Made by a program: the position numbers and the translations under genes. The notes beneath the pieces are model-generated. The model was given only the letters and a program-made list of their open reading frames with translations. It made no database searches and was not told the DNA's origin. From Cyanidioschyzon merolae (taxonomy: Eukaryota), in assembly GCA_000091205.1 (NCBI GenBank), contig AP006491.2: 64,000 nucleotides of DNA, one strand, 5' to 3'. This document shows positions 2,725 to 54,217 of this stretch, piece after piece (position 1 is the first letter of the stretch; the number at the start of each line of letters is the position of its first letter).

Positions 2725-3580
2725 CGGGTCCTGGTGTTCGAGTTCGCGAACTGCAGTGAAGGCGCGTCATTTTACACGTGCTTTCGAAGGGATGCTTGGA
2801 TTGCTTCCGGAGGTTTCCAGCAACGCTAGGGAAAGCAACTTGGCGACCCGCGAGCGCCTCTGAGCCACAATACCACATGGCACGCTTCGCTGGGTGCTTT
2901 CGAATGCCATTTTCCGGCATCGAGCATTTGGACACCGGACCATGACATCAGGGATGCTTGAATTGATGTTCAGGGATACGTGGAGCGACAGCGTGCGCAT
3001 ACATTGTTCAGGTTTCTGTGCGGCGTACTGCAGAGGTTTGTACATGGGCGATGCCCTTGGTTGCTCACACCGAAGAGATAGCGCTTAGGATACGGCGCTC
3101 GCTTTCAATGGTGCCGTTCATATCATCGGTGATGTTTCGTAGTGCCGCTGGCTTTGGACCTGTCATGCGAGCCTGCGTGCGTTCGTCTTCTCGTATGATC
3201 TTTAGAGAGAGGTAGCGCCAGTGACCGCAGTATTGCTATGCGAGCTTGCATCGTTGCTTTCGGTATCGCTGGTATTCTCTAAATACGCTGGCGATTGCAG
3301 ATCGATTGTGCCAAGGAGATGATGCCGTGAACCTTGTGTTCATCCTGCGCTTTCGTTTTAGGGGCACCATCCGCTGCGTCCTCGCTGACGAAGCGGCCTC
3401 GTGTCCGTTCTGGTGACCGTACCGTCTTTAGGTCGCTGGGTCGCGGAAAGGATATCCCTGAACTGTGAAGGGTACTTCTGGGAAACATATATGTACAAAA
3501 AAGTTTTGATTTGTAAAACAAGTCACCCGTGCGCAACGCAGCGAAAATGTCTCGCGACGATAGGGGAAACGAATACCGTT

Positions 3581-4046
3581 GTGCAGACGCCTCCTATCCG
3601 GTTTTGACTGGACACCTCTTATCGGTTTCAGTTTTTCCTTGCAAACTTCGAGCCTCAGAGGCTGGCCCGCAAAACTTCGCTCGCTTCAGCTCCGCAGGGC
3701 TCGTCTTCAAGATCGGCACATCGCCTGATATTGATCGCAGCCTTAAAGCCTCGGTGTACGAGCTCCATGCGTTTATTGCCACTGGTTGCATACACCAATG
3801 CATGGAGTCCTCGAACTCGAACCCTGAGTGTCACTGCGGTCTCGTCATGGTCCCGTCGGGCACACACGGTTCCTCGCCTATCGCCCATCTTCTTCTTCAC
3901 CACGTGCTCTCCTTCGCTCGACAGTCGGTGAGGAGCGGATTTTTCCGTTTCTTGTCGAACCTCTGGATGGCAGGCCCCTGGGATCCTCGACTTCCACGTC
4001 CATACCATTCCCTTGAATTTTTTACGTCTTCAAATGAACGCACTTG
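3581..4046 (-). mobile_element. miniature Fanzor/TnpB-derived non-autonomous element, copy F1 (~466 bp)
   Basis: Minus-strand frame reads ..GNKRMELVHRGFKAAINIRRCADL.. (ORF 3655..4008), homologous to the C-terminus of the large element protein (KKRMEFVNRDFNAAINIRRCAV). 5' end cttcaaatgaacgcacttgg (4029-4048, rc ccaagtgcgttcatttgaag) matches the 5' terminus of copies A, C, F2 and F3. 3' end ...ggaggcgtctgcac (rc at 3581-3594) matches the shared right-end core. Flanks outside are unique. Confidence 0.7.
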
Positions 4047-4106
4047 GAACGAGTCTGCTGTACACCGTGAACAAGCATTTGTTTACACGCACCTGGGCGC
4101 GGCACG

Positions 4107-5240
4107 TCATTGACATGAAAGACCAAAAGAGATTCGACGCTCACCAGAGCAGACCCCTGACGAACTCGGTGGGTCGTCGGCTTGCGCCCGCTGGGTCGAA
4201 CGTTGACCAGTTAGCAAAGCAAGAGCCTGCTGCAGCTCCTTCACTGCGGTCTCGTCGTCGTCGAACTCTGCTGCGCTCAGCGCTGACCGCACATGTCGCC
4301 TAAAGGCGTGCCGCGTGCCCGCTGTGACCCCGTTCCCAGGCGAACCGAGCATATCATCTATGGATTCTCTGCGTTTCCTTTCCTGTGAGGTCTCATTCGG
4401 AGACTGCGCTGATAACGGCTGCAGCGAAGCCGGCGCCTGCCTCTCGCTGCCAGCCGCTCCGTCGAACGCTTCCTGGCTGCGGCTAGTGATGCACTGCTGG
4501 TGCGTCGACGTTGGAGGCGGGCTTTCATCGTCGTCCACAGACTGGGGCGAGGCATCAGATCCCTCCGGACTTACAACACCGGTACTGTTCTGTTTGCCAA
4601 GGCTCGAAGACGAGCCCTTGTCTGGCACCGGTGCAGTACGTACGCTTTGGGTGACTTCCACACACTCGACATTGTCTTGCGTTGACTCCCGAAGCGCTCT
4701 TCGAGTCATCACGCACTTGTATTGAGCATATCGAATCTGCTGGGAAAGCTGGTCCCAGAACTCAGCTGATACTGCTGCGCCAGTACCCCCAGTGCTTGTT
4801 TCCGAGTCCTCGCGCCCCCGGAACTGTTCCAGCGCTTGCAGGAAGATAGACGCGGCATAAAACTTCGCAGCTGTCTCTGGGGCGGGTTTTCGTGAGATGG
4901 ACTCCTTCTCAGCTCTTTCAAATATTCGCGACGCAAAGCGGTGCAAGTACTCCAGCGGAGTATGCCGAAAAATCGACGACCACTCCCTAGAGGAGAGGAT
5001 TCGTGCCTTCAATGCCTCCAGATCGTTCATTTCCTTTGAGAGAAAAGCAGCAATCCGCTTTTGTTCATTTGTATGGGTCAACTGCCGGCGAATGCCAAGG
5101 CCCTGCTCTACAGCATACAAACGAGTGAAGTACGAGACTACAGGTTCAATGTGGGCAACCTCGCGGCCCCGCGCAAAAAACGGGTACAGGCCCTGCAGCG
5201 CGTCAGGGACGTCTGCTATACCGTCGAGCTCGCTTTCCAT
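4107..5240 (-). CDS. VTA1: Vta1/LIP5-like protein (ESCRT-III/Vps4 cofactor family), tentative
   Basis: N-terminal region LYPFFARGREVAHIEPVVSYFTRLYAVEQGLGI...KEMNDLEALKARI resembles the Vta1 N-terminal domain (PVVAYYCRLYAMQTGMKI...LMDQLEALKKQL). A C-terminal ..AVKELQQALALLT resembles the Vta1 VSL tail. Start moved to the ATG at 5240-5238, because ORF-track residues 1-60 (from a TTG at 5420) are the 3' flank of Fanzor copy A. Confidence 0.5.
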   Translation of the reverse strand: MESELDGIADVPDALQGLYPFFARGREVAHIEPVVSYFTRLYAVEQGLGIRRQLTHTNEQKRIAAFLSKEMNDLEALKARILSSREWSSIFRHTPLEYLHRFASRIFERAEKESISRKPAPETAAKFYAASIFLQALEQFRGREDSETSTGGTGAAVSAEFWDQLSQQIRYAQYKCVMTRRALRESTQDNVECVEVTQSVRTAPVPDKGSSSSLGKQNSTGVVSPEGSDASPQSVDDDESPPPTSTHQQCITSRSQEAFDGAAGSERQAPASLQPLSAQSPNETSQERKRRESIDDMLGSPGNGVTAGTRHAFRRHVRSALSAAEFDDDETAVKELQQALALLTGQRSTQRAQADDPPSSSGVCSGERRISFGLSCQ

Positions 5241-5269
5241 GCTGCGACCACACTCCTGCAAACAAACGT

Positions 5270-7790
5270 CTTTCAAAACAAAAACGCTGTCGCCAGCGGT
5301 GTACCGTAGTGGCAGTGAACGCGCCCTAGACAAGGAGTCTCCAACTGACGTGCAGACGTCTCCCAGTTTTTTTCGACCGGCCACCTCATACAGGATACAA
5401 CTTTTTCTCATATAGTTCAACTTTCAGAGGTTGTCCAATAAAGTCCCTTCTTGTGGACTCTGGAGGTCTCGTCTCCAACACCGCACATCTCCTGATATTG
5501 ATAGCGGCGTTACAGTCTCGGTTCAAAAACTCCATACGTTTCTTGCCATTGATTGTACTTACGAATGGAAGTAGTCCCCGAACTTTCGCTCTCCTTTCCA
5601 TTTGTTCATCTGTCAGCGCTCTATACTTTTTTATATCCTCAGGGCTCCTCTGGAACTTTTCCATCTCGATCCTCTGGAGTGCACAGCCCAGTTCGTGGTG
5701 TGTGATTACGATGTCCGGAACTCATCTATCGGTATGGTCACGAAACCGTCTGCGCACTCCTTGCACGTTCTTGTCAACGGTGCTGGTATGCTCTCTCTTT
5801 GGGTCACCCGCCGTCCTGCTCCATACGTTACCACGAGCCTCTGACTCTTGTCCTCCTTGAGGATGCTCAACTCATTGAAAAAGCTGGTCAACGCATGCTC
5901 CCTTCCCACAATACAAGCTCAAACACAGACGAGCTCACGGAAGTTTGGTGTACGCTTTCCACAGCGCCTCGTCATGCGCAGCTTGAGTGTCCATGACCTC
6001 TGGAAAATCTTGAAAATCCGCATGTCGGATCGTCACCTCGCTCATAGCTTCCCTGTGATCCTTCATTCCTGCATTCCATGTCTCAATTTTCTTCCCTGCA
6101 TTCATGATTCCCGATTCTCGATAGTATCTCGCGCTCGAGAGCCTCAAAAGTCGCATATCTCTCTGACGTACTCTACCCTCAGTATCATCTTCCGCACGCT
6201 TGGGTACAGCGATGGTAATGATATTCGTGTTTCCGGGGTCCGCGCCGACGACAAAGTCGTTCTCCTGCACCTTGTTCGTCGTAGGACACGCCTTCTTGTT
6301 ATCTTCGTGCTCCGCCGACGGCGATATCGAGGACGAAACAGGACGAGCTGCCTTCAACTGCCGATCGTGAACACACTAGGATACTCCATCGGTTTCGATG
6401 ATGCCCGTGAATACCGTTTTCTTGCTCGTTTCGAGACGCTCGAAATCGAAGATATTCTTCCAGGGCTTCTCGTGGTTTTCACCGGTGAACCCTGTCTTCC
6501 TTACATCGAACCCCCGGACAGATCTCCTTCATGATGCCGTAGAGGACTCCGGCGTCGATCGTTCCAAAATCGAACTTGATGATGCATAATGGAACGACGT
6601 TGAAGCGCTTCCCCATTAGGGTCGCCCACCGCTTCAACGACTCTTCGTTTGCTTCCTCACCGTGCTCCATATCCGCCTCGGGATCGAGTTGTCGGTCCAG
6701 AAACACGAAATATCGCACGACGAGGCGATCGCATCTTTCCTTGATGTTTTTCAACTCTGATATCTTTTCTGCTGGATTCGGCATCCCCAGCACCGCACGG
6801 TGCTCTCCTATAACCGCACGGATGACAGAAGCTTCGTTCGTGCTCTCGTTCGACGCCTTCGCTCCGACGAATTCGATCTCATCTTCATTCTGACTATCGT
6901 TCGCGATGCCATTGATGCTGGCCTTTGTCGCTCTGCAAGACGGGCCCGCGTCCAGCGCAGACACGGCGCGTATCATGAAACGTTCGAGGTTCACGGTCAT
7001 GCGGTTCTTCAGGTTCTCGTGGTGCTTCATTGCCCCGTATTCGTAAATATCCGCGTCACCCTTGTATCGAGTACCGTTGGAGCGGTATTTCGCGAAGTTT
7101 TCGTGGAGGGCATACATTCGCGCATTTCTCCTCGACGTTTCCCGCGTGCCAATCACCAGATGACGAATACAGGTCTTGTCGAAAAATTCTTCCGGAACCT
7201 CGACTGTTTTGGTGTCCATCACGTCGCGATACATATCTCTCGCGATATGCATCAGTGCTACAGCAGCGTTACAAACACGCATAGAGTGCGACTCGAAACG
7301 GGGTCTGATGGCCTCTTGGAGCTTTTCCGTGTACGGATCCCTGATGTGTTTATGAAGACAGGCTTTCACCAGCATCTCGTGATATTATCGTCTTTCTCGC
7401 ATCCATCGACGTCGGGCCTCCCGCCGTAACTTCTCCTTCTTGTCTCGTTCCGCTTTGCTCGGCTCTGTTTTTCATTTTTCCCCGGCAGCCGGCAACACCA
7501 GGCCTCCAGGATCCTCCATTTCCATTACTTTCCATTTTTATGATAAGAATGCACTTTGAAAGCGTTTGCTATGAACCACGAAAAATCACTTGACCATAAT
7601 ACTGTAAGGGCTGAAACACGAATGAATCGCAAGACTATATTTTGCTATGACTTCAACGCAAATACACCTTTTTCCCGTAGAAAAACACGCTGCTGATCAG
7701 CATCGCGTTTCCTTTCAATGGCGGCATGCGCGTCGTTTCTCATGTCAACCAGATATGGTCATATGCTTGTGGACCGCGATGCGTAAAGGT
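5270..7790 (-). mobile_element. Fanzor (eukaryotic TnpB-like) element copy A, degraded; core 5350..7593 plus flanks shared with copy C
   Basis: Protein in ORFs 6479..7375, 5935..6357, 5706..5909, 5386..5664 (minus). Right-end core ctgggagacgtctgcac (rc at 5350-5364). 5'-end core tcaagtgatttttcg (rc at 7579-7593). About 190 nt upstream and ~85 nt downstream flank are ~80-85% identical to the flanks of copy C. Confidence 0.75.
5386..7375 (-). pseudogene. TnpB/Fanzor-like RuvC nuclease gene, disrupted (one frameshift near 6479, in-frame TAG near 6360, further frame breaks)
   Basis: Four ORF pieces in different frames. Motifs: [17 protein letters not shown] (RuvC-I-like), [54 protein letters not shown] (TnpB RuvC-III-like DxNAAxNI). 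Translating the minus strand across 6361-6480 gives [34 protein letters not shown] where copy C continues ..[14 protein letters not shown]..., i.e. TAG in place of ATG. Confidence 0.7.
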
Positions 7791-8529
7791 GTCCAGTTTG
7801 TGCATTACAGGAAAAGTCAATAACCGCGTTCTGTTTTATGTTCATCGCTCTCGTGTGCAGCGCAGTTGCGTTGCCTGTTCTCCGTCAAACAATGCTGGGC
7901 AGTGGACCGAACGCTTTTGTGCCGTCGACTGGTAGAAAAGGTTCGGAACGAGCTCGAGCAGCGGTTCTGGCTATAGCGCTTCAACGGATAGCTCTGCAAT
8001 GTCTGCATACGTTTCATCGAATGAGAGCACTGCCCCGCGGGACACGGCGCCGACGCTGGGTGGTGGTCTCTTCGCCGGCGTCCTGCCGAGTCCGAGTATG
8101 ATGCCCAGCCCCAGCATGACAGCCAGCCTAGGTGCTGGCGTTGTTATGATGACAGCCGGGTGAACTAGCATATGTTTGTGAGCAGGATTGCGACTCGCTT
8201 GAGTATTCGAGGCAATGCTCGGTCAAAATGCTCGCATCACGGTTCCCGTACTCATATCGATCTCACGTTCTTTGACCGGGAAATGGTACGGTACTGGTGT
8301 CAGCGGGCGCAGGAAGACCCACTCGTAGATTTTTATGGCGGCTCCAGTGACGTTCCAATCTCTGGACAATGTCATCATCACTAGCACGCCCGTGGGGACT
8401 GTATCACGGCAAGAAAACATGGAATGAAGAGGGAGCTTCCATGCGGAATCTGCTGTAAATGCTTTCCAGGTTTTCTAGCATCATCATTCAGCAGCATTCG
8501 CGCCAGGCTGAAAACCCTGTCCTTTACGT

Positions 8530-10092
8530 TCAACTGCCCAGAGATTGCGTTGATACCCGCTGCGGTGTATAGTAGAGAACGGCGCGCTCGTTCCGCGGTT
8601 GCAACGGGCGCACGTTTGGTTGGCCCCGCTGCGCTGCCAGGATGCGGTCCACAATTCGCTGTGGCAACGAGTCACGATGGGTCAACACAATCCACTTGAT
8701 GTTCTCGGAGCAAGGCGGGGTCGTCAGGCTGCCTCGGTAATAGAAGAAGCTGGGCCGTGCCTCAGGGTCCAGCTCCTCGGCGGCCAGCGCCACGCCTGAC
8801 TCGATTTCTCCGGCTGGCGATCGTGATGCCAATGAACGTGCAGTGCTTTCTCGCAAGAGCGTATCCGCAAAATTGAATTCCACGAAGCGTGTGGTTCTCA
8901 GTCTACCGGGCCGAGATGGTGCCGTTTGGCTGGTCGCTGTGCTCGATGGTGGTAGCGACGAGTTCGATGCATCGGCGACCAGAGACTCAACGGGGATACT
9001 GGCACGCGTAGCGCCGGCGGCTGCTGAGGTGTAGGTCAGCGAGGTCTCGCCATTCGTTGCGCCTGCATCCTTCTGTGCCGGAGGCTGACCAGCTGGTGCT
9101 TCATCCAGCAGTGAGAGCAGCTCATCAAGCCAGCGTGGAACCGGTGTATCAGGCGCGCCTACTGCCGCTGCGTCCGCACCGCTTCCGTCGCTCGCTGGGT
9201 TCGCCTCGGGAACCGCACGCCAGATGCGACCAATCACGGCAACATCGTTCTCATCCGCCACGTTCCGAAACACGGCGTGCATTTCGAGGTCACCACGGAA
9301 ACGTTCGATGACATGCTCGCTCTGAGGTGCGTGGAAGTGAATGTTCACCAGGCGGTACTGTTGCACTTGTGCGTCGCTGAGTTTGACTGGAGTCGGCGCC
9401 TCAGTTGCCGCGACCGATGTGCCATCGCCATCAGTCACCTTGGGGAGCTCTGGAGGGAGCTCTCGCAACGTCAAGGTCGCTGCTGGAAGCGGCGCTTCAA
9501 AGCCAGTGTCCTGTGGTAATTCACCGCCAACGGGCGGTGAAAGCGGAATATACTGCTCGAACGTCGCCGTCGGCGGGTGGATATCTAGTGGAGACGGCTC
9601 GAAGCGTTTCCACTGCGCAACTTGACTGGTTATGTCGAAGGGAGCGGCCGCAGTTGAGTATTCGAAACGCAACGCTTCTCGCTCCGAGAGCGCTATTGGC
9701 GACTGGAAACGTCCACAAGAGCACAGACGGTATGCATCAGCGAGACCACCCCACTTGGACGGCCCTCGCTCTGAACCGTAATCCCAGCAGAGGTTCTGGT
9801 TGGCTGCAGCAGCCTGCGGGCTCTGCACGTCAGGCACCTGCGCTTGCGTGTACGTTTGCATTGGACTAGCTCCGTCTTGGTTGCTCGGAGCGTTCACAGC
9901 ACCTGCCGATTGTGCAGTGTCGCACTGTGCGTGCACGAGTTCAGGTTTGCCTAGAAGAAGCGCCGTGGAAAGCAGCACTACGGCCGCTCCTCGATCCCGC
10001 GAGAGCGCTATTCGCAATAGTCTCTCGGAGCCGCTTCCGAAATGAGTTGTCTCTATGCAATGAAAGACAACGGCATGCGGCGATGCGTGCAC
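8530..10092 (-). CDS. alpha-carbonic anhydrase with N-terminal targeting-like extension (secretory or thylakoid-lumen type); start codon unresolved
   Basis: Alpha-CA signatures: NLCWDYG..GPSKWG, Zn ligands in VNIHFHAPQSEH and EMHAVF, YRGSLTTPPCSENIKWIVL, NVRPLQPRN. A Cys pair (NLCW / TPPC) is typical of disulfide-bearing extracytosolic alpha-CAs. Hydrophobic stretch AAVVLLSTALLLG then VHA-Q near the N-terminus. The ORF-track start at 10092 is GTG, and there is no in-frame ATG between it and the upstream stop at 10204-10206. Confidence 0.8.
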   Translation of the reverse strand: MHASPHAVVFHCIETTHFGSGSERLLRIALSRDRGAAVVLLSTALLLGKPELVHAQCDTAQSAGAVNAPSNQDGASPMQTYTQAQVPDVQSPQAAAANQNLCWDYGSERGPSKWGGLADAYRLCSCGRFQSPIALSEREALRFEYSTAAAPFDITSQVAQWKRFEPSPLDIHPPTATFEQYIPLSPPVGGELPQDTGFEAPLPAATLTLRELPPELPKVTDGDGTSVAATEAPTPVKLSDAQVQQYRLVNIHFHAPQSEHVIERFRGDLEMHAVFRNVADENDVAVIGRIWRAVPEANPASDGSGADAAAVGAPDTPVPRWLDELLSLLDEAPAGQPPAQKDAGATNGETSLTYTSAAAGATRASIPVESLVADASNSSLPPSSTATSQTAPSRPGRLRTTRFVEFNFADTLLRESTARSLASRSPAGEIESGVALAAEELDPEARPSFFYYRGSLTTPPCSENIKWIVLTHRDSLPQRIVDRILAAQRGQPNVRPLQPRNERAVLYYTPQRVSTQSLGS

Positions 10093-10967
10093 CGCGCGAG
10101 ACGCTACGCCGATCGACGAAGGACACGTGTCCGACGCCGCATTGGCACATGCGTGTTCGAACCTGCGTACTGCACTTGAAATCCGGTGTCCTATATCGGA
10201 AACTCACGTAGAATGCTCTCTTGCGCTAGGCGCTATCGCTGGTGTCGACGCTCCTGCCCATCTCAGTACCGCCCTGAAGCACAGTCGGTGTTGTGGCAGG
10301 CTTGGATCCCGATCATGCTTCCAGAAGACGCGTAGCGTTCGCAGCGGCGTTCGCTTGTGTGGATGAGGTATGCATCTCTCCACTCAACAGGAGTTTCGTT
10401 AGGTTTATTGATCGTAACCAAACTAGGCACGGTATGGCTCCTGAACTCGTATATACGTTTTTTGTGATGCTTGTAATGCATGCCGCACGGACGCTGCAAT
10501 GAGGAACTGATTTGAATTGTGCTTCTATCCGGCGTTATGCACTGTCGACAATGACATTGCTTATCGTTGGCATGCTGTCGTCGTGGTCAAAGTTATGATG
10601 GCCGCTACGTCCCCCGGATCCGGTGATCTTGCTAGAGGCATCGCGCATGCGGCGTCTAAATGTACCTTGACGTCTGAGCCTCGCATTTCGCCTGGCACGA
10701 TCGAGGCACATGACAAAATCACATACTGTATTCTGCTCTACTCTATCCGTTTACTGCCAATGGCGTTACTTATATGTAGTGGTGGAATCGCCAAACCGTA
10801 AACTTTCACGTACCACCGCCCGTTCCATATGCTCCCGGATACTCAGTGGCTACCCGTTGATTTTCCACTCGCATTAATCATATCGCGGAGCGTATGGATT
10901 TTCTTTCTTTTACTGCTCAACGGAGCCGAAAAGTTCATCGACCAAGAAGAGTATACATATCTACAAC

Positions 10968-11450
10968 GCGCAGACGCCTCCCAGCGGTTCTTTTTTAACT
11001 GACCACCTACTATCGACTTCAGCTTTTCCTTGTAAACTTTGAACCTGAGAGGCTGCCCCGCAAAGCTCGATCGCGTCAGCTCCTCGGACCTCGCCTCCAG
11101 CAACGCACATCATCTGATATTGATGGTTGCGTTAAAGTCTCGGTTCGCGAACTCCATGCTTTTGCTGCTTCTGGATGAACTCACCATTACGAGGATTGCT
11201 ATAGTTTGCGACCTCTGTATCACTCCAGTCTCGTCATCGCTCCGTCGTACAAACACGTTTTCTCGCCTATCTCCCATGTTCTTCCTCTTCCCTATGTGCT
11301 CCGTCACTTGCTCCTCTTCGCTCGATAGTCGGCGAGAAGAGGAGTTTTCGTTTTTCTCCGGCACTCGGCGATGACAACGCTCCAGGATCCTCGATTTGCA
11401 TATCCATATCATTCCCTTGGATTCCATATTTCTTCACCTGAACGCTTCTG
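10968..11450 (-). mobile_element. miniature Fanzor/TnpB-derived non-autonomous element, copy F2 (~483 bp)
   Basis: Minus-strand frames read ..KSMEFANRDFNATINIR (ORF 11110..11427) and ..FAGQPLRFKVYKEKLKSIVGGQLKKNRW (ORF 10843..11103), homologous to the last ~130 aa of the large-element protein. 5' end cagaagcgttcaggtgaag (rc at 11432-11450). Right-end core gggaggcgtctgcgc (rc at 10968-10982). Same internal-deletion architecture as F1, F3 and F4. Confidence 0.7.
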
Positions 11451-11694
11451 CTACGCACCGCGAACCAGCGTTTCATGACACGCACACGCGTGGGGAACTT
11501 CATGGAGGTGAAAGCCTCGACAAGCATTGTCCAATTTCATGCTGCATTGTACATATGCCGTTTTATACAGTTTCCGAATGCCACTGCTGGCTGCGCGCGC
11601 GCAGGCATCCAGCGAGCGATGCGTCGTGGCGTCCTACGAACGCATCCATGCGACTCGTCTCGCAACTGCGTTTCACGACGAAGGCTCAAACGCA

Positions 11695-12154
11695 ATGCGC
11701 ACCCTTCCGGCTTTCATTTTCCCTCTAAACCTAACGCTCGAGCAAGTATCCTCAAGCGAAACTCTCTCACAGCGGGAAACGCGACCGAGAACGGTTGTAC
11801 GTCGGGCAAGAGCGCGCCGTTCAGGGAACGGTGTCGAGTTGCCAGCAAACGCACTGAGCACCACTTGGCCTCTAGCCTCTGTTTACCCGAGTGTCTTGGA
11901 AATGCAGTGTGCTCAATCAAGACAACGAGACTCCATTCTACTGCAGAGGGCAACGGGCACCGGCAAAGGGCTCAAGTTCAGGTTCGTGAACAGCCACTCG
12001 GCTGATGCGAACGACGGTCTGCGTGCTGGTTCCGGTAAACCTGGTAGCTTGAACGCGCGTGGCTTTGCTGGTGGCTCCGGAGGCGACGGCGCTTCAGGAA
12101 TGAACGCAAGCGAAACGGTGCCCTTGCCACCGTGGTCCCCACTCAGCGCCTCAA

Positions 12155-12185
<31 letters not shown>

Positions 12186-13746
12186 CGACAGCAGTGCAGA
12201 GATGCCGGACGGGAGCGAGGCTGGCGAGGCTGCATCGCGCCCTCGACGCGCACTTCTGCTCATCTCGGATACCGGCGGTGGTCATCGTGCTTCCGCGTAT
12301 GCCATTCGCGATGCCATGAACGAACTCTATCCTGGAGCATTCGAATGGTTCATCGTCGACATGTGGGCCGAGTGGACGCTGTGGCCTTTCAGCTCCATGC
12401 CCCAGTCGTACCAGTTTCTGGCTAAGAATCCGCCTCTATGGCGAGCTACATATTGTTACGGGTCGTTTCCGCTCACGCGACGACTCACCGAGGAGGTCAC
12501 AAATGCGATCTTGCACGATCGCATCCGCGCAGCGATAAACTGCATCCGACCTGACCTGGTGATTTCGCTGCACCCCCTGACTCAGATGCTGCCTCTTCGG
12601 GTACTCAAGAAGATGGGCATTAGGGAACGAATCCCCTTTGTAACTGTGGTAACTGACCTGGGTGGTGCGCACGCAACCTGGTTCGATCCCGACGCGGACC
12701 TGGTGTTCGTGGCCTCGGATGCGGTGCGGCAGTTGGCGATCCGTTGTGGTGTGCATCCCGAGCGCATTCGACAACACGGTTTACCAGTTCGCCCCGAGTT
12801 TTGGGCCGATGCCGAGAGAAACTACGAGTCCGAGCTCGAATCCCTGAATCGAGCGCAACGCATCCTCGAGTCGCGACGTGCGTGGCGCCGGCGGCTCGGT
12901 TTCCTCGCGGAGCATCGGCGAACAGTTCTCATTGTTGGCGGTGGAGATGGCGTTGGCGGCCTCACGCGTATTGCACGAGCGGTCGTCGAACGACTAGACG
13001 CTCTGGCGACGGAGTTGCGTGCGCAGTCACCACCTGCATCGCCGCAGTTCCAGGTCATCGTTGTTTGCGGGCGCAACGAAAGAGCGCGCAACGAACTGAC
13101 GCGCTGGGCCCGCGAGCGGCAGTCCCGACACGGTGATAACGCGCACACCACGGAGACGCGTACGAACCTAACGGTATTCGGATTCGTTTCCAATATGGGT
13201 GAGTTGATGGCGGCCGCCGATGCCATTGTCACGAAAGCCGGACCCGGTACCATCGCCGAAGCATTGATTCGGGGCGTACCGATAATGCTGAGCGGCTTTC
13301 TCCCGGGCCAAGAGGAAGGCAATGTACCTTTTGTGGTCAATCATGGTGTGGGTGAATACCACCAGGGACCCGTTGCGATTGCGAATCGTCTCGCCGAGTG
13401 GCTCGCCGACGAGACACTCCTCCTGCGTATGGCGATTCGTGCACGGGATCTGGGCAAACCGCTGGCAACCTACGAGATCTGTCAGGATATAGCAGAGCTG
13501 GCGCAACGGTTTCCAGGTTACCCCGATACACCGAACGAGTCGGATACGATCATGGGGCAGGCTCCGGGGAACATGCGCGAGCTACGCAACGGCAACAGCG
13601 ATCGTGGTGATGTGGGTCTGGCGGCGCCCTCGGCGGCACGCCGTACAGACAGCACCGACGCTCAGCGCCGGCCGCTCGATGCCACTTGTCGAGCTGCACG
13701 ACAACCGCAAGCTACCTGGCATAGCAGAGTCGTTTCCGTATCCTAG
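11695..13746 (+). CDS. MGD1: monogalactosyldiacylglycerol synthase (MGDG synthase, GT28) with long N-terminal presequence/low-complexity region
   Basis: LISDTGGGHRASAYAIRDA (cf. plant MGD1 SDTGGGHRASAEAI), VISLHPL, VTVVTDLGGAHATWF, VLIVGGGDGVGG, VFGFVSNMGELMAAADAIVTKAGPGTIAEAL. Poly-Asp tract DDDDDDDDDDD from (GAC)n at ~12160-12195. The ORF-track start at 11527 is TTG; candidate ATGs are at 11539, 11578 and 11695 (MRTLPAFIFPL, Phe-containing presequence). The start choice is uncertain. Confidence 0.85.
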
Positions 13747-32856: not shown

Positions 32857-33171
32857 GGTTTATAGAAGAAGCGTTCCGAGCGCGTTGATTTTGAGAAATA
32901 AAGAATCTGAGGGAAAAGTATGAAGGCGTGGATTTCGGGTACCCGGTGTCGTCAGGCGCCGGAAATAAACGAACAAAACATCGTATTGCTGCCGACAATC
33001 GAGCGATGAAGAGCAATTGACGAAAAATAGAAGACGGTTGGAGATAGGGGAGAAAAGGTGTTTGTAAGACGGGACGATGACGAGAGTGTAGTGGTTCAGA
33101 AGGGCACGAATGCGAGGAATCCTTGCAGCAGTGCATTCAACAAGAGGCAACAAACGCAAGGAGTTTGTGAA
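32857..33171 (+). mobile_element. miniature Fanzor-derived element copy F4, 3'-truncated at a tail-to-tail junction with copy B
   Basis: 5' end agaagaagcgttccgagcgcgttgattttgag matches the mini/full 5' terminus. The internal sequence aligns with F3 across the mini-specific deletion junction (...ataggggagaaaaggtgtttgtaagacgggacgatgacgagag...). The sense frame reads RRARMRGILAAVHSTRGNKRKEFVN and then stops matching at 33171. Confidence 0.6.
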
Positions 33172-35165
33172 CTCGTGGCCTTCTTGCCATTTCCTTTTCG
33201 GTTAGCGCTACGTGCTTTCCTATCTCCCAAGCGGGTCGCTGGCAATTTCCCATCTCGATCCTCTGGAGTTTACAGCCCAGTTCGTGGTGTGTGATTACGA
33301 TGTCCGGAACTCATCTATCGGTATGGTCACGAAACCGTCTGCGCACTCCTTGCACGTTCTTGTCGACGGTGCTGGTATGCTCTCTCTTTGGGTCACCCGC
33401 CGTCCTGCTCCATACGTTACCACGAGCCTCTGACTCTTGTCCTCCTTGAGGACGCTCAACTCATTGAAAAAGCTGGTCAACGCATGCTCCCTTCCCACAA
33501 TACAAGCTCAAACACAGACGAGCTCACGGAAGTTTGGTGTACGCTTTCCACAGCGCCTCGTCATGCGCAGCTTGAGTGTCCATGACCTCTGGAAAATCTT
33601 GAAAATCCGCATGTCGGATCGTCACCTCGCTCATAGCTTCCCTGTGATCCTTCATTCCTGCATTCCATGTCTCAATTTTCTTCCCTGCATTCATGATTCC
33701 CGATTCTCGATAGTATCTCGCGCTCGAGAGCCTCAAAAGTCGCATATCTCTCTGACGTACTCTACCCTCAGTATCATCTTCCGCACGCTTGGGTACAGCG
33801 ATGGTAATGATGTTCGTGTTGCCGGGGTCCGCGCCGACGACAAAGTCGTTCTCCTGCACCTTGTTCGTCGTAGGACACGCCTTCTTGTTATCTTCGTGCT
33901 CCGCCGACGGCGATATCGAGGACGAAACAGGACGAGCTGCCTTCAACTGCCGATCGTGAACACACTAGGATACTCCATCGGTTTCGATGATGCCCGTGAA
34001 TACCGTTTTCTTGCTCGTTTCGAGACGCTCGAAATCGAAGATATTCTTCCAGGGCTTCTCGCGGTTTTCACCGGTGAACCCTGTCTTCCTTACATCGAAC
34101 CCCCGGACAGATCTCCTTCATGATGCCGTAGAGGACTCCGGCGTCGATCGTTCCAAAATCGAACTTGATGATGCATAATGGAACGACGTTGAAGCGCTTC
34201 CCCATTAGGGTCGCCCACCGTTTCAACGACTCTTCGTTTGCTTCCACACCGTGCTCCATATCCGCCTCGGGATCGAGTTGTCGGTCCAGAAACACGAAAT
34301 ATCGCACGACGAGGCGATCGTGTCTTTCCTTGATGTTTTTCAACTCTGATATCTTTTCTGCTGGATTCGGCATCCCCAGCACCGCACGGTGCTCTCCTAT
34401 AACCGCACGGATGACAGAAGCTTCGCTCGTGCTCTCGTTCGACGCCTTCGCTCCGACGAATTCGATCTCATCTTCATTCTGACTATCGTTCGCGATGCCA
34501 TTGATGATGGCCTTTGTCGCTCTGCAAGAGGGGCCCGCGTCCAGCGCAGACACGGCGCGTATCATGAAATGTTCGAGGTTCACGGTCATGCGGTTCTTCA
34601 GGTTCTCGTGGTGCTTCATTGCCCCGTATTCGTAAATATCCGCGTCACCCTTGTATCGAGTACCGTTGGAGCGGTATTTCGCGAAGTTTTCGTGGAGGGC
34701 ATACATTCGCGCATTTCTCCTCGACGTTTCCCGCGTGCCAATCATCAGATGACGAATACAGGTCTTGTCGAAAAATTCTTCCGGAACCTCGACTGTTTTG
34801 GTGTCCATCACGTCGCGATACATATCTCTCGCGATATGCATCAGTGCTACAGCAGCGAAAAGAACACGCATAGAGTGCGACTCGAAACGGGGTCTGATGG
34901 CGTCTCGCAACTTCTGCCTACGTGGATCCTCGATATGTTTGAGAAGACAGGCTTTCACCAGCATCTCGTGGTACTGTCGTCTTTCGTGCAGCTTTTGACG
35001 TAGGGCCTCGCCCTTTTGCTTCTTCGTCCTGTTTCGTTCCTATCCCATTAGCACTGTTTGTCGTTTTTCTCCGCCTGCCGGTAGCAAGGGCCCTTCAGGA
35101 TCCCCGACTTGCACCCGCATAGCTTTGCTTTGGCGTTTTTATTTCGTCAAAACGACCGCACGTCT
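33168..35165 (-). mobile_element. Fanzor element copy B, 3'-truncated; body ~99% identical to copy A, 5' end of a different sub-lineage
   Basis: 33245-34985 is near-identical to 5660-7400 (only a few aa differences in the paired ORFs). The 5'-UTR part 34985-35165 is only ~70% similar to A. 5' terminus aaaaagacgtgcggtcg (rc at 35154-35170) aligns with the F3 terminus. The 3' part ends at 33168-33180 (sense ..MARRPRV), ~45 nt upstream of the RuvC-III codons. Confidence 0.7.
33170..34964 (-). pseudogene. TnpB/Fanzor-like nuclease gene, truncated and carrying the same frame lesions as copy A
   Basis: ORFs 34068..34964, 33524..33946, 33295..33498 plus the MGNCQRPAWEIGKHVALTEKEMARRPRV piece mirror the ORF pieces of copy A, including the same TAG and frameshift. 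Confidence 0.7.
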
Positions 35166-38025: not shown

Positions 38026-38739
38026 TCACTTCCACCACGGATTCTCACCAGTTCGAAAGTCGGTCTCCTTCCAGGGTTTGATCTCTACGAACCCGTCATC
38101 ATCCACTTCGGTATGTGCCAGAGCGAGCGACAGCGGAGCCGGACCGCGCACCACCTTCCCTGTACGATCGTACTGCGAACCATGGCACGGGCAAATGAAC
38201 TTGTTCTGTGCTGCGTTCCAAGGCACCACGCAGCCAAGGTGCGTGCAAACAGCATTCAGTGCGTAGGTTTCGAGCTCGCCGGCGTCGTTCACAACAAGAT
38301 ACGTGGGCTCCCCGTTTAGGCCCTGCACAAGGTCACGAGAGCCGGGGGGATGCGTCTTCAGATAATCCTCCTTCTTGATAGGCGTCCCGAGGGCGTCCTT
38401 TGCAATCACACCGCCTGAGCCTTTGTTCTTCAGTGGCGGCACGAAGAAGCTGGCGTACGTGCCAAGCATGATGCTTGCTGGGAGTCCAACTGAACCCACT
38501 AGAATGAGGTTCAGCAGCGTGCGCTTCCCCATATCTGGGATGTAGTCGTCATCGGATCCCGAGGAGCCGCCACCGCTGCCGCTCCCTCCACGCGCGTCAT
38601 CAACTGTACTCGGCCGCGCAAACGTCATGCGCAGCGCCACGCGCTTCCTGCCCAGCGTTGTAGGCTGGCGTTCGACTGCACCAGGATGACACCGAGACAC
38701 CGTTCTAAACGTAATGCTATTTGTTGTAAGCACGAACAT
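38026..38739 (-). CDS. petC: cytochrome b6-f complex Rieske iron-sulfur subunit (plastid PetC) with transit peptide
   Basis: Rieske boxes [11 protein letters not shown] and CPCHGSQYD; N-terminal membrane anchor [28 protein letters not shown]; Gly-rich linker. The presequence [18 protein letters not shown]... is non-hydrophobic with a Phe at position 2. ATG confirmed at 38739-38737. Confidence 0.9.
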
Positions 38740-40349: not shown

Positions 40350-42945
40350 GCTGTCGATTTGCGCACCAGGGAGATCTGTCAGTTTCGAGTCACGACGCGT
40401 ATGCTGCCGTTGAAGGGAAACGCGATCCTGATCAATAGCGTGCTGCTCTAATGTGCAAGTTGTACTTGCGTTAAAGACGTAGCAAAGTACAGTTCTTCAG
40501 TTCATTTGTGTCTCAAACCTCAAACAAGTGTATTCAACTGTTTTTTCGCAGTATATAACTGAAGCGTTCAAAGTCCGTTACAAAAGATAAAAAAGGAAAG
40601 TTATGGAAAAGGAAGTGGAGGATCCTGGAGGCCCAGTGTGGCTGGCCGCCAGAAAAAAAAACAAAAAAATAGTGCCGAGTCCAGAAGAAAACGAAGCGAG
40701 AAAGAAGCAAAATGGGGGCCCTACGTCGAAGGCTGCAAGAAAGACGTCTGTACAACGAGACGGTGGTGAAAGCCTGTCTTCGTAAACATACCAAGGATCC
40801 GTACAAGGCAAAGTTGCGAGGCGCTATCAGAAACCGTGTCGGGTTGTAATCCATAACGATTATAAAGGGGTCGTCAGTACGAATGCATTTGGCGAGGGAG
40901 ATGTACGAAGACGTGACGCACGTGGAAACAGTCGAGGTTCTGGTCGAGTTTTTCGACAAGACCTCTATTCGTCACCTGATGCTTGGTACGGGGGAATCGT
41001 CGACAAAGAAAGAGCTAGTGCATGCCCTCCACGAAAACTTCGCAGAATTCCGCTTCGAGGGAACTCGATACAAGGGTGACGGAAATATTTACACATGCGG
41101 GGTGATGAAGTACATCACGAACCTGAGGAACCATTTGACTATGAACCCGGAGCGTTTCATGATACGCACCGTCTTTGCGCTGTACTCGGGCCTGTCTCGC
41201 AAAGGAGTATGGGCGATTACCAATGGCATCACGAACGATCGCAAGCATGATGAGATCGAATTCGTCGACAGGAAGGCGTCACGCAGGAGAAGGTTTAAAA
41301 CTTCTGTCATCCGTGCGGTTATACAAGAGCACCGCGCAGTCTTGGGGTTGGCGAATTCAATAGAAAACATATCAGAGTTGGAAAAAGATAAGGAAAGATA
41401 CGATCGCCTCATTCTGCGCTATTTAGTGTTCTTAGACCGAGAACTCGAACGCAAGGCAGAGGTGAAGCTGAGTGAGGAAAAAATGAAGAGTGGAGGAGAC
41501 GGAAGGCTGACCTAATGGGGAAGCGCTTTAACGGCGTTCCGTTGTGCAACACCAAGTCACATTTCGTGAGTATCGACTCCAGACTCTTTTACGGCATCAC
41601 GAAGGAGATCAGTCCCGACTTCAATGTTAGCAGGGAGGACTTCACCGGCGAAAACCGGGAGACGTGCGGTAAGAAAAGTATCTTCTATTTCAAACGTCTG
41701 AAAGTGAGCAAACAAAAGATATTCACTGGGATGATCGAAACCGATGGAGTAGCCATGTGTGCACACTATCGGCGCTTGACGACAGATCGTCCAGTTCCGC
41801 CCGTGACGAAGCATGAAGAGAAGAAGGATGCGGGTCCTGCGATGCAGGAGGTGGAGGATAACGACCTGGTCGTTGACGCGACGAAGCATGAAGATAACAA
41901 CAAGGCGGCTCCTGCGACGCAGAAAGTGCAAGATATCGACTTTGTCGTTGGCGCGGACCCCGGAAACACAAATATCATCACCATCGCAGCACCGAAGTGT
42001 GCGGAAGATGGTACTGACGGTAGTTTACGTCAGAAAGACATGCGTCTATTGAGGTTCTCGAGAGCTAGATACTACCGAGAATCGGGAATCATGAATGCGG
42101 GGAAGAAAATCGAGAGCTGGAATTCAGGAATGAAGGATCACCTAGAAGCTTTGAGCGAGGTGACGAGCCGCGGAGCCGACATTGAAGCTTTTCGGGAGTC
42201 CATGGAAGGTCCGCGTTGCTCATTGGGATACGCTGTGGGAAGAGTACACCAAGCGCCGGTGGGCTCGTCTGCGTAAGAATCTGTATTGTGGTAAGCAACG
42301 TGCATTTGCCAACTTTTTCAATGCGTTGAGCGCCCTCAAGGAGAATGAAAGTCAGAGGCTCGTCGTAGCGTACGGAGCAGAGCGCTGGGCGTCCAAAAAA
42401 GGGACTACACCAGCTCCGTCGACAAGAACGTACAAGGAGTGCGCACGGCGTTTCGCTACGATACCTGTAGACGAGTTCCGAACATCGTATACACACCACG
42501 AACTGGGGTGTACGCATCACAGAGTGGAGATGGAAACGTGCCAGAGGAGTCCTGAGGATATAAAAAAATACGGAGCGCTGATGGAGGGGCAAATGGAAAG
42601 GAGGGCGAAATTTAGCGGATTGCTTGCATTAGTAAGTACACTCAATGATGGCAAGAAACGGATGGAATTCGTGAACAGAGACTTTCACGCAGTGATCAAT
42701 GTAAGATGTGCGGTAATGGAGAAAAGGCCTCGATACTGGACACGAGAGAACTTTGTTGGACAACCTCTCAAAGTGGAACTATATAAGAAAAAGCTGGAAG
42801 CAGTAATGGGTGGCCGGTCCAAAAAAACTGGGAGGCGTCAGCACATCAGTTAGAGACGATTTGTCTAGGGCGCGTTCGCCGCCACTGCTGAACACCGTCG
42901 GCGTCGTTCGACTTTTGCAAAGTGTTCGGTATCGGTGTCGGTGAC
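40350..42945 (+). mobile_element. Fanzor (eukaryotic TnpB-like) element copy C, degraded; core 40524..42844 plus flanks shared with copy A
   Basis: 5' terminus caaacaagtgtattc (40521-40535). 5' leader with ggaggatcctggaggcc. Right-end core gggaggcgtcagcac (42830-42844), followed by atcagttagagacgatttgtctagggcgcgttcgcc, which matches copy A downstream. Confidence 0.75.
40711..42853 (+). pseudogene. TnpB/Fanzor-like RuvC nuclease gene, disrupted by an in-frame stop near 40790 and frameshifts near 41515 and 42200
   Basis: ORFs 40883..41515, 41515..42276, 42182..42853 are homologous along their length to the copy A pieces. Motifs: [48 protein letters not shown] then HHELGCTHHRVEMETC, KKRMEFVNRDFHAVINVRCAVM. 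N-terminus MGALRRRLQERRLYNETVVKACLRKH then stop. Confidence 0.7.
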
Positions 42946-53753: not shown

Positions 53754-54217
53754 CAAGTGCGTTCGTTTTTGAAGGACAAAAACCCAAGGGAAAGGCATGC
53801 ACATGTTAGTCAGGGATCCTGGCGGGTCGATGTCGCGGGCTACCAGGAAAAACGACAAAATTCTCTTCTCGCCTACCATCGAGCGAAGATGCGCAAGTAT
53901 CCGAGAAGAATAGGGGATATAGGCAATGAAACGTACTTGCCCGAAAGTATGACGACGAGACTGCAGTGGCACAGAGGGCACGAATTCGAGGACTCCTTTC
54001 ATCGGTGAGTTCCACCAGCGGCAATAAACGCATGGAGTTCGTGAACCGAGACTTTAACACCGCCATCAATATCAGACGATGTGTGGTGCTGAAAATTAGG
54101 ACCGACCGGCTGACGAGAGCGAATCTCCTGGGCTAGCCCCTCAGATTCGAAGTGCACACGGCGAAGCTGCAGCCGAGAGCAGGCGACCGGTTCGAAAAGG
54201 CTGGTGACGCGTCTGCG
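53754..54217 (+). mobile_element. miniature Fanzor/TnpB-derived non-autonomous element, copy F3 (~464 bp)
   Basis: 5' end caagtgcgttcgtttttgaaggacaaaaacccaagggaaaggcatg...cagggatcctggcggg. Sense frame: LARKYDDETAVAQRARIRGLLSSVSSTSGNKRMEFVNRDFNTAINIRRCVVLKIRTDRLTRANLLG*. Right-end core gctggtgacgcgtctgcgt (54199-54217). The ORF body between the 5' leader and the last ~95 codons is absent. Confidence 0.7.

What the first reader, a model, noticed from the sequence alone, without database searches (positions are those of the whole stretch)
8530..10210. Alpha-carbonic anhydrase of the disulfide-bearing extracytosolic type with a bipartite-looking presequence but no in-frame ATG
The enzyme domain keeps the Cys pair (NLCWDY / TTPPC) typical of secreted or lumenal alpha-CAs. 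The upstream sequence has a hydrophobic segment followed by VHA-Q, parallel to the AxA-type lumenal site in PsbO of this same window (VQA-L), so a thylakoid-lumen CA of the Chlamydomonas Cah3 type is a possibility. However, the open frame begins at a GTG (10092) and there is no in-frame ATG before the stop at 10204-10206. This leaves three options: a non-AUG start, a rare intron with an upstream exon, or a frameshift in the 5' region. The enzyme also has a ~150-aa low-complexity insertion (..SDGSGADAAAVGAPDTP...SSLPPSSTATSQ..).
Basis: partly seen in the sequence, partly recalled or inferred. Interest (0 to 1): 0.5.

Follow-up and report, generated by a model that had tools for sequence, protein, structure and literature searches.

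The report
Truncated carbonic anhydrase duplicate, vestigial presequence

Summary
An alpha-carbonic anhydrase (CA) ORF lies on the minus strand at 8530-10092. A hydrophobic segment plus VHA|Q sits in frame upstream, and there is no in-frame ATG back to the stop at 10204-10206.

The gene is known. It is C. merolae 10D CMI270C (BAM80133.1, 443 aa), annotated from the internal Met (ATG 9859-9861) and reported in the literature as cytosolic.

The "presequence" is a relic:
- Homology to the paralogue CMT416C runs only from 10043 to 7810. CMT416C has an intact MGF... transit peptide plus hydrophobic/VHA|Q bipartite presequence.
- The break falls inside that presequence, so the transit-peptide part and both paralogue ATGs are missing here.
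- The Cyanidiococcus orthologue is syntenic with CMT416C and keeps the MGF start, so CMI270C is the derived, 5'-truncated duplicate.

Eight of nine natural alleles share the ATG-less state. One metagenome allele (L004) lacks the T at 10055, which puts an upstream ATG (10150) in frame. Another allele lacks that ATG altogether. This is therefore not a 10D sequencing error or private lesion. No plausible intron model exists.

The catalytic residues are intact, but a subfamily-invariant Pro-rich motif has decayed only in this copy.

Verdict: known gene, ordinary relocalised duplicate, low interest. Non-AUG initiation is not excluded.

The parts
8530..9861 (-). Annotated CDS of CMI270C (443 aa plus stop), alpha-carbonic anhydrase
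   Evidence: The translation is an exact match to BAM80133.1/XP_005536419.1 of C. merolae 10D. Pfam PF00194.
9859..9861 (-). Met77 ATG, the annotated and most likely start codon. It is the first ATG in any frame downstream of 10074.
   Evidence: ATG inventory. This Met is present in all CMI270C-type alleles and is Arg in CMT416C.
9862..10043 (-). Vestigial presequence, in frame and without an ATG. It is homologous to CMT416C codons about 50-110 and most likely now serves as 5' leader.
   Evidence: BLAST homology boundary at 10043. Alignments.
9949..9987 (-). Hydrophobic core AAVVLLSTALLLG of the relic signal domain
   Evidence: The paralogue has AVMALLSAALLLG.
9928..9936 (-). VHA, an AxA-type processing motif. 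The predicted cut lies before Gln (9925-9927).
   Evidence: Identical VHA|Q in CMT416C. PsbO of this window has VQA|L.
10044..10203 (-). Upstream stretch that is open in the CA frame but unrelated to the paralogue. It contains the GTG at 10090-10092. Most likely non-coding.
   Evidence: No BLAST homology beyond 10043. This stretch falls inside the interval 10044-10452, which carries 12 of the 14 variable sites among the 9 alleles.
10204..10206 (-). In-frame TGA that closes the frame upstream
9941..10150 (-). Out-of-frame ORF (69 codons) from ATG 10148-10150. This ATG is fused in frame to the CA only in environmental allele L004 (539-aa P0014).
10055..10055 (-). Polymorphic T. It is present in 10D and in 7 of 8 metagenome alleles, and absent in L004. 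Its absence puts ATG 10150 in frame.
7810..8529 (-). 3' flank duplicated together with the gene. It ends without a poly(A) tract.
8575..9786 (-). Alpha-CA catalytic domain, from WDYG to VLYY, with two insertions
9313..9339 (-). HFHAPQSEH: two zinc-ligand His residues (hCA II His94/His96 equivalents) and the Glu106 equivalent
   Evidence: Aligned to HFHAPSEH of PDB 6eki and 6im0. Invariant in alignment A3.
9268..9288 (-). LEMHAVF: Glu117 and the third zinc ligand, His119 equivalent
8710..8733 (-). GSLTTPPC: Thr199/Thr200 equivalents and the second Cys of the conserved pair
9697..9732 (-). YRLCSCGRFQSP: holds the conserved first Cys of the pair (Cys23 equivalent)
   Evidence: Aligned with the Cys of YIMCKIGKNQSP in 6eki. 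Invariant in A3.
9478..9552 (-). Degenerate copy (YIPLSPPVGGELPQD...) of the subfamily motif YIPPPPPIVGDVPPV
8749..9213 (-). Ala/Ser/Pro-rich low-complexity region (155 aa), with conserved alpha-CA elements embedded in it

Best explanation
The locus is CMI270C of Cyanidioschyzon merolae 10D, one of two paralogous alpha-carbonic anhydrase genes.

Origin. It arose as a segmental DNA duplicate of about 2.3 kb of the ancestral CMT416C-type gene. The parent encodes a precursor with a PsbO-like bipartite presequence: an MGF... transit peptide, then a hydrophobic domain, then VHA|Q. The 5' breakpoint of the duplicate (window 10043) lies inside that presequence. The copy therefore lost the parental promoter, start codon and transit peptide, and kept only the hydrophobic/VHA|Q part.

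Start codon. The kept part has no initiation codon and is most likely now 5' leader. Translation most likely starts at the first AUG, Met77 (9859-9861). That Met exists in every CMI270C allele and not in the parent. The product would be a 443-aa enzyme with no targeting signal that stays in the cytosol.

Enzyme. The catalytic machinery is intact, so the protein is most likely an active CO2/HCO3- interconverting enzyme.

Shown here: the gene's identity, the breakpoint, the polarity of the duplication, the population-wide lack of an in-frame ATG, and the intact catalytic residues.

Inferred, or taken from annotation and literature: use of Met77, cytosolic location, and enzymatic activity.
For: - Identity: exact match of 8533-9861(-) to BAM80133.1 of strain 10D.
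- Breakpoint: homology to the CMT416C locus runs only from window 10043 to 7810, at 86.6% over 2275 nt (alignments).
- Parental presequence: CMT416C (P0031) begins MGFLLCRACF...MANFGNGSKRLLRIALSWDRGAVMALLSAALLLGQPVLVHA|QGG, the same architecture as PsbO of this window.
- Polarity: the Cyanidiococcus locus L016 encodes MGFRVGL...LCSFSAVK...LSWEQAARILFFSTAIVLGQPSWALA|QGG. Its flanks match the CMT416C locus and not the window.
- Population: 8 of 9 alleles from 8 metagenome samples plus 10D carry the T at 10055, which keeps ATG 10150 out of frame. L011 has GTG instead of that ATG.
- First AUG: no ATG in any frame lies between 10074 and 9861.
- Met77: present in all CMI270C-type proteins, Arg in CMT416C.
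- Function retained: catalytic His/Glu/Thr residues conserved. dN/dS is 0.07 in the N-terminal CA core.
- Literature: no predicted targeting sequence, fluorescence-localised to the cytosol, and 0.5-fold expression at low CO2 against 65-fold induction for CMT416C. The expression difference fits loss of the parental promoter (PMC10154280, PMC11836721).
Against: - There are no transcript-start or N-terminal protein data for this gene in what I could reach.
- I could not read the paper behind the cytosolic localisation. If its construct was built from the annotated CDS, it could not reveal a longer isoform.
- The relic stays open in frame and free of indels in all alleles, and shows low polymorphism (1 variable site in 183 nt, against 12 in 409 nt further upstream). 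Its dN/dS of 0.47 against the paralogue is not that of free decay. Gene conversion with CMT416C, or constraint on the 5' UTR, could also explain this.
- The retained Cys pair is typical of extracytosolic alpha-CAs.
- One environmental allele (L004) does encode an ATG-started 539-aa precursor.
Confidence: 0.72

Rival explanations
1. Non-AUG initiation. Translation starts, at least in part, at an in-frame near-cognate codon upstream of the hydrophobic core. Candidates are GTG 10092, ATA about 10054, the TTG and ATA in RLLRIAL, and GTG/CTG at 9978-9973. This would give a signal-peptide-bearing isoform that enters the secretory pathway or thylakoid, alongside or instead of the cytosolic form.
For: - The frame is open for 114 codons upstream of Met77, and the h-region plus VHA|Q is intact in all alleles.
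- The relic has low polymorphism and a dN/dS of 0.47.
- The Cys pair is retained.
Against: - The stromal transit-peptide part that the parent and the Cyanidiococcus orthologue use is missing.
- Alleles carry non-conservative changes in the c-region (ELVHA to ERVHA, KPE to KTE).
- The relic staying open is not statistically unusual. My rough estimate, not computed with a tool, is P of about 0.1.
- Literature reports the protein as cytosolic.
Confidence: 0.1
2. Frameshift lesion or sequencing error in 10D. The true start is the ATG at 10150, as in allele L004 (539-aa precursor MCQCGVGHVSFVDRRSVSRGARIAACRCLSLQERAHFGSGSERLL...). On this view the reference carries a 1-nt insertion at 10055.
For: L004 differs from 10D by one missing T at 10055 plus two substitutions, and then reads through in frame from that ATG.
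Against: - The T is present in 10D and in 7 other independent metagenome contigs.
- L004 sits on the L014-type haplotype (shared G at 10049), so its deletion looks derived.
- L011 has lost the ATG itself.
- The sequence upstream of 10043 is not homologous to the conserved parental transit peptide.
Confidence: 0.04
3. A rare intron joins an upstream ATG-containing exon to the presequence.
For: - A GTGAGT lies at 10207-10202.
- A pyrimidine-rich ...ttgtctttcattgcatAG lies at about 10053.
Against: - No ATG-started ORF reaches the donor at 10207.
- The only models that close the frame use a donor inside a dispersed repeat at 11184 and need introns longer than 1.1 kb.
- The paralogue and the Cyanidiococcus orthologue encode the presequence without an intron.
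Confidence: 0.02
4. CMI270C is a decaying copy on its way to becoming a pseudogene, and it makes little or no functional enzyme.
For: - It lacks the parental promoter and start.
- Protein evolution is faster on the CMI270C branch: 21 against 7 lineage-specific changes with P0003 as outgroup, p = 0.013.
- Eight of those changes destroy the otherwise invariant PPPPPIVGDVPPV motif.
- Possible uORFs if the transcript starts upstream.
Against: - The ORF is intact in 10D and all 13 environmental CMI270C-type sequences read.
- Catalytic residues are intact, and the canonical Thr-Thr is kept where CMT416C has Thr-Met.
- dN/dS is 0.07 in the CA N-core.
- The transcript responds to CO2 according to the literature.
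- With Cyanidium as outgroup the rate asymmetry is not significant (16 against 10).
Confidence: 0.1

Closest known systems
CMT416C (BAM83359.1), the paralogous alpha-CA of C. merolae 10D
   Same: - 86.6% nucleotide identity over 2.27 kb, with the 3' two-thirds nearly identical (dS 0.04-0.1).
- The same two insertions, the same catalytic residues and Cys pair, and the same hydrophobic/VHA|Q segment.
   Different: - CMT416C has an ATG-started MGF... transit peptide conserved in Cyanidiococcus, and the intact PPPPPIVGDVPPV motif.
- It is syntenic with the outgroup locus.
- It is 65-fold induced at low CO2 and predicted to be plastid or lumen targeted.
- CMI270C has none of these features and starts at a Met that CMT416C lacks.
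Chlamydomonas reinhardtii CAH3, a thylakoid-lumen alpha-CA
   Same: - Alpha-CA fold family.
- The parental lineage of this gene carries a bipartite, lumen-type presequence.
- Distant subfamily members (P0006, P0007, P0110) carry RRxFL twin-arginine-like motifs, as expected of Tat substrates.
- Steensma 2023 lists CAH3 as the reciprocal best hit.
   Different: - CMI270C has no start codon in front of its presequence remnant and no transit peptide.
- It is reported as cytosolic.
- Similarity to CAH3 is weak: 44-46% over short stretches, E about 1e-5 according to PMC10154280.
- The Cyanidiales presequences lack an RR pair next to the hydrophobic core.
Bacterial periplasmic alpha-CAs (for example PDB 6eki, 6im0, 1kop)
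   Same: These are the best solved-structure matches. They share W-x-Y...GP..W, C..G..QSP, HFHxPSEH, E-x-H and GSLTTPPC-E-x-x-W.
   Different: - CMI270C has an extra Pro-rich insertion of about 70 aa and low-complexity insertions of about 116 aa.
- No His64-type proton shuttle could be identified.
- It has no functional signal peptide.
Protein relocalisation after gene duplication through loss of an N-terminal targeting sequence (a general evolutionary pattern; from my own knowledge)
   Same: A duplicate truncated at the 5' end loses its targeting peptide, adopts a downstream Met and a new promoter, and diverges in both expression and location.
   Different: Here the distal half of the old presequence is still readable in frame in the leader. 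A natural 1-nt indel allele can re-attach an unrelated upstream ATG to it.

Membership tests
Alpha-carbonic anhydrase (Pfam PF00194, EC 4.2.1.1) | Significant match to the family profile | tested here: met
   PF00194 at 79.1 bits against a cut-off of 27, E = 5e-22. 59 PDB alpha-CA sequences with E up to 0.001.
Alpha-carbonic anhydrase (Pfam PF00194, EC 4.2.1.1) | Three zinc-ligand histidines (hCA II His94, His96, His119) | tested here: met
   HFH (within 9313-9339) and E-M-H (within 9268-9288) align with HFH and E-A-H of 6eki and 6im0. They are invariant in A3.
Alpha-carbonic anhydrase (Pfam PF00194, EC 4.2.1.1) | Glu106 / Thr199 hydrogen-bond network | tested here: met
   SEH and GSLTTPPC are conserved.
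Alpha-carbonic anhydrase (Pfam PF00194, EC 4.2.1.1) | His64-type proton shuttle | tested here: inconclusive
   The region where NNGH would lie is replaced by the Pro-rich insertion. The AF2 model was too poor to decide (mean pLDDT 48).
Alpha-carbonic anhydrase (Pfam PF00194, EC 4.2.1.1) | CO2 hydration activity | not testable with these tools
   Needs an enzyme assay.
Extracytosolic, disulfide-bearing alpha-CAs | Cys23-Cys203 pair present | tested here: met
   The Cys in YRLCSCG and the Cys in TTPPC are both present. Whether the disulfide bond forms cannot be tested here.
Extracytosolic, disulfide-bearing alpha-CAs | Functional N-terminal signal or presequence with an initiation codon | tested here: not met
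   No in-frame ATG lies between the stop at 10204-10206 and Met77. The same holds in 8 of 9 alleles.
CAH3-type thylakoid-lumen CA | Bipartite presequence: stromal transit peptide plus lumen-targeting domain | tested here: not met
   Only the distal domain is present. Homology to the parental presequence stops at 10043, so the MGF... transit part is absent.
CAH3-type thylakoid-lumen CA | Lumenal location | not testable with these tools
   Literature reports a cytosolic fluorescence signal. I could not read the primary paper.
Relocalised, 5'-truncated segmental duplicate | A parent copy with a full presequence at a locus syntenic with an outgroup | tested here: met
   The flanks of the Cyanidiococcus locus L016 match the CMT416C locus and not the window. 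The MGF start is conserved.
Relocalised, 5'-truncated segmental duplicate | A sharp homology breakpoint inside the presequence, and a new downstream start codon | tested here: met
   Breakpoint at 10043. Met77 is present in all CMI270C alleles and is Arg in the parent. Actual use of Met77 was not tested.

The most novel reading that the evidence does not exclude
The relic is not dead. One reading is that a minor isoform is made from a near-cognate codon upstream of the hydrophobic core, so that one gene supplies CA to both the cytosol and a membrane-bounded compartment. The other reading is that natural populations carry a 1-nt on/off switch, the T at 10055. Its absence, as in allele L004, fuses an unrelated upstream ATG and 31 new codons to the old lumen-targeting domain and creates a newly targeted CA.
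Probability: 0.1. Interest if true: 0.5.

Novelty: already known. Interest (0 to 1): 0.25.

Why it matters
CMI270C and CMT416C are the two CA candidates in current models of the unusual pyrenoid-less carbon-concentrating mechanism of C. merolae. Those models need a cytosolic CA and debate a lumenal or stromal one.

A 5'-truncated duplication removed the transit peptide, start codon and promoter from one copy. That gives a simple genomic reason why the two near-identical enzymes differ in predicted targeting, reported location and CO2 response.

It also raises a caveat. Localisation done with the annotated CDS cannot exclude an N-terminally extended isoform.

Beyond that, this is a textbook case of relocalisation after duplication and not a new kind of system.

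Tried and rejected
- **Intron models.** I enumerated every ATG, GTRAGT-like donor and AG acceptor upstream that would join the CA frame. Only introns longer than 1.1 kb from a donor inside a repeat survive, so I rejected this.
- **10D-specific frameshift or sequencing error.** Rejected by 8 metagenome alleles.
- **Retrocopy origin.** The 720-nt 3' flank duplicated with the gene ends without a poly(A) tract. With the 5' break inside the parent CDS, a DNA segmental duplication fits better.
- **Transcript 5' end.**
  - Exact-sequence look-ups of the 10D 443-, 482- and 520-aa products found no further contigs beyond the NCBI reference record.
  - One Logan contig (L010, SRR29605875, 99.5% identical) has a TruSeq adapter joined at about window 10044. 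That would fit a transcript 5' end just downstream of all upstream ATGs. I could not establish the type of run, so I do not use it as evidence.
- **Structure.** The AF2 model on a 6-sequence alignment had a mean pLDDT of 48 and pTM of 0.54. It was too poor for fold search or for placing the insertions, so I did not pursue it.
- **Selection tests on the relic.**
  - dN/dS of the relic against the paralogue (0.47) is uninformative for 38 codons with gene conversion going on.
  - By my hand count from the sequences (no tool run), a relative-rate count on the relic with Cyanidiococcus as outgroup gave 6 against 3, which is not significant.
- **Primary literature.** Rademacher 2017 is not held in the paper library.
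- **Repeats.** Pfam found nothing for the ORFs of the dispersed repeats.
- **Genome collection.** The GTDB genome collection holds no eukaryotes, so I did not scan it.
Full report
**What is there.** The minus strand of window 8530-10092 holds a 520-codon ORF that the ORF listing starts at a GTG. Translated further back, the frame stays open to a TGA at 10204-10206. It contains no Met until ...GASPMQTYTQ, whose ATG is at 9859-9861. The product matches Pfam PF00194 (79.1 bits, cut-off 27) and solved bacterial alpha-carbonic anhydrases (CAs).

**Identity.** The translation of 8533-9861(-) is, residue for residue, BAM80133.1/XP_005536419.1, "similar to carbonic anhydrase precursor", of Cyanidioschyzon merolae strain 10D, on an 810,151-bp record. 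This is locus CMI270C. The literature treats CMI270C and its paralogue CMT416C as the two CA candidates of the alga's carbon-concentrating mechanism.
- CMI270C: no predicted targeting sequence, fluorescence-localised to the cytosol, 0.5-fold at low CO2.
- CMT416C: predicted chloroplast or thylakoid-lumen, 65-fold induced.

These points come from PMC10154280 and PMC11836721, both citing Rademacher et al. 2017.

**Where the "presequence" comes from.** CMT416C (P0031, 552 aa) begins MGFLLCRACFRRNSKRFLSTKLQRCALTRDLHLRRHSKLCSFSALKMANFGNGSKRLLRIALSWDRGAVMALLSAALLLGQPVLVHA|QGG. That is a basic transit-peptide-like region with Phe near the N-terminus, then a hydrophobic core and an AxA-type site. PsbO encoded in this same window has the same layout: MLGFVSGT...KGRLPSVTAFAAAVLLAAATHSAVLEPVQA|LTAQ.

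BLAST of the window against a metagenome copy of the CMT416C locus (L006) gives one collinear block, window 10043 to 7810, at 86.6% over 2275 nt. Nothing matches upstream. The 5' end of the block falls at the codons for FGSGS, about codon 49 of the paralogue. The 3' end lies 720 nt past the stop and has no poly(A) tract. CMI270C thus shares with its paralogue only the distal part of the presequence, the enzyme and a 3' flank. Both ATGs that the paralogue has in the shared part are different codons here: MANF corresponds to TTHF, and VMALL to VVLLS.

**Which copy is derived.** The Cyanidiococcus yangmingshanensis locus (L016) carries two frameshifts in the assembly. Its N-terminal frame nevertheless reads MGFRVGLRRFRGKKWTQCPLTNDLHLRRHRRLCSFSAVKLAHLNKTSLRMSRTTLSWEQAARILFFSTAIVLGQPSWALA|QGGPSES. 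This conserves the MGF start and the DLHLRRH..LCSFSA.K block of CMT416C. Its flanks match the CMT416C locus and not the window. CMT416C is therefore the ancestral, syntenic gene. CMI270C is a 5'-truncated segmental duplicate inserted between an MGDG synthase gene (11527-13746, plus strand) and a Vta1-like gene (4107-5420, minus strand), with a dispersed repeat (5291-7736) lying between the duplicate and Vta1. Loss of the parental promoter fits the very different CO2 response of the two genes. That last link is my inference.

**Is the missing ATG real?** An ATG at 10148-10150 opens a 69-codon ORF in another frame. One metagenome allele (L004, protein P0014, 539 aa) has that ATG in frame with the CA because it lacks one T, at window 10055. 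I compared nine alleles that include the CMI270C-specific upstream sequence: 10D plus contigs from eight different samples.
- The T is present in eight of nine.
- L004 shares a substitution with the L014 haplotype, so its deletion looks derived.
- L011 has GTG instead of the ATG.

The ATG-less state is the population norm, not an error or private lesion of the reference. An exhaustive search for exon-intron models found nothing plausible. Between 10074 and 9861 there is no ATG in any frame, so any transcript starting in that interval has Met77 as its first AUG. Met77 is present in every CMI270C-type sequence and is Arg in CMT416C.

**The enzyme.** The zinc ligands (HFH, E-x-H), the Glu106 and Thr199-Thr200 equivalents and the QSP and W motifs are conserved.

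The conserved partner of the TTPPC Cys is the Cys in YRLCSCG, not the one in NLCWDY. The NLCWDY Cys is missing from relatives.

Compared with bacterial alpha-CAs there are two insertions. One is Pro-rich and about 70 aa long. The other consists of low-complexity loops of about 116 aa net. Both are shared with CMT416C and, in part, with Cyanidium.

The first insertion carries a motif, [EQ]xY[IV]PPPPP[IL]VGD[AV]PPV. This motif marks a wider alpha-CA subfamily of about 16 further 50%-identity clusters, several of which have RRxFL twin-arginine-like N-termini. In CMI270C alone the motif has decayed to YIPLSPPVGGELPQD. Eight of the 21 CMI270C-specific replacements fall in it, against 7 CMT416C-specific replacements overall (p = 0.013 with P0003 as outgroup; not significant with Cyanidium, 16 against 10).

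Otherwise the copy looks functional:
- The ORF is intact in all alleles.
- dN/dS is 0.07 in the N-terminal core.
- The 3' two-thirds are kept nearly identical to the paralogue (dS 0.04-0.1 against 0.3-0.5 in the 5' part), which points to ongoing gene conversion.

**Explanation and rivals.** The best-supported reading (confidence about 0.7) is a relocalised duplicate. The remnant of the lumen-type targeting domain is now leader sequence, translation starts at Met77, and the enzyme is cytosolic.

Not excluded:
- Non-AUG initiation upstream of the hydrophobic core (about 0.1). The relic is still open, indel-free and little polymorphic. The published localisation may have used the annotated CDS, and I could not read the primary paper.
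- A decaying copy (about 0.1).

Largely excluded:
- A reference frameshift.
- An intron.

**What failed.** The AF2 model was too poor to use (pLDDT 48). Look-ups for 10D transcript contigs found nothing. A Logan contig with an adapter joined at about 10044 could mark a transcript 5' end, but I could not verify the type of run.

**Verdict.** This is a known, annotated and partly characterised gene. The ATG-less presequence is a vestige explained by a 5'-truncated duplication. It is useful as a caveat and an explanation for models of the C. merolae carbon-concentrating mechanism, but it is not a new kind of feature.

Noticed in passing
window 5291-7736, 33180-35103, 40392-42903 (inverted): A dispersed repeat family of about 1.9-2.5 kb. 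Two copies are 94.7% identical and the third is 73-79% identical. Its ORFs of 298, 228 and 253 aa have no Pfam match. One copy lies directly 3' of the duplicated CA segment.
   Followed up: partly
window 3575-4121, 10969-11514, 53754-54224 (inverted), 32958-33172; also L006 7492-7996: A second repeat family of about 550 bp at 67-71% identity. One copy lies about 0.9 kb upstream of the CA ORF and another lies 3' of the paralogue CMT416C. The ORF at 11110-11427(-) ends ...ANRDFNATINIR, which from memory resembles a TnpB/Fanzor RuvC-III motif. Pfam found nothing, so this is only a lead.
   Followed up: partly
window 8530-9500 versus CMT416C (L006); L001: The 3' two-thirds of the two CA paralogues are nearly identical (dS 0.04-0.1) while the 5' third has dS 0.3-0.5. 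This suggests ongoing gene conversion. Many metagenome proteins are mosaics of the two (TMPPC/TTPPC, QQGQ/QRGQ, PQPAST/PQRVST). L001 has CMT416C flanks with a CMI270C-like 5' CDS, which is either real conversion or an assembly chimera.
   Followed up: partly
L016 2700-4800 (Cyanidiococcus yangmingshanensis, VWRR01000001.1): The orthologous CA gene is split over three frames in the assembly. It is annotated only as a 253-aa C-terminal fragment (F1559_004593). This is either an assembly indel error or a pseudogene.
   Followed up: partly
L010 1-30 (Logan SRR29605875): A contig 99.5% identical to the gene starts with a TruSeq adapter joined at about window 10044, one base from the paralogue homology breakpoint. 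It may be a transcript 5' end or a library artefact.
   Followed up: no
P0006, P0007, P0110 and about 13 further clusters: An alpha-CA subfamily defined by the invariant Pro-rich motif PPPPP[IL]VGD[AV]PPV. Several members carry AFV-type transit-peptide starts followed by RRxFL twin-arginine-like signals. The organisms are unnamed in the databases reached, and I do not know what the motif does.
   Followed up: partly
CMT416C (P0031) residue in GSLTMPPC versus window 8710-8733: The CO2-induced paralogue and P0003 have Met at the Thr200-equivalent position (LTMPPC). CMI270C keeps the canonical LTTPPC.
   Followed up: no
window 38026-38739 (-) and 58886-59875 (+): Nuclear genes for Rieske PetC and for PsbO, both with N-terminal presequences starting M-x-(x)-F. 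They are useful internal references for C. merolae plastid and thylakoid targeting signals.
   Followed up: partly
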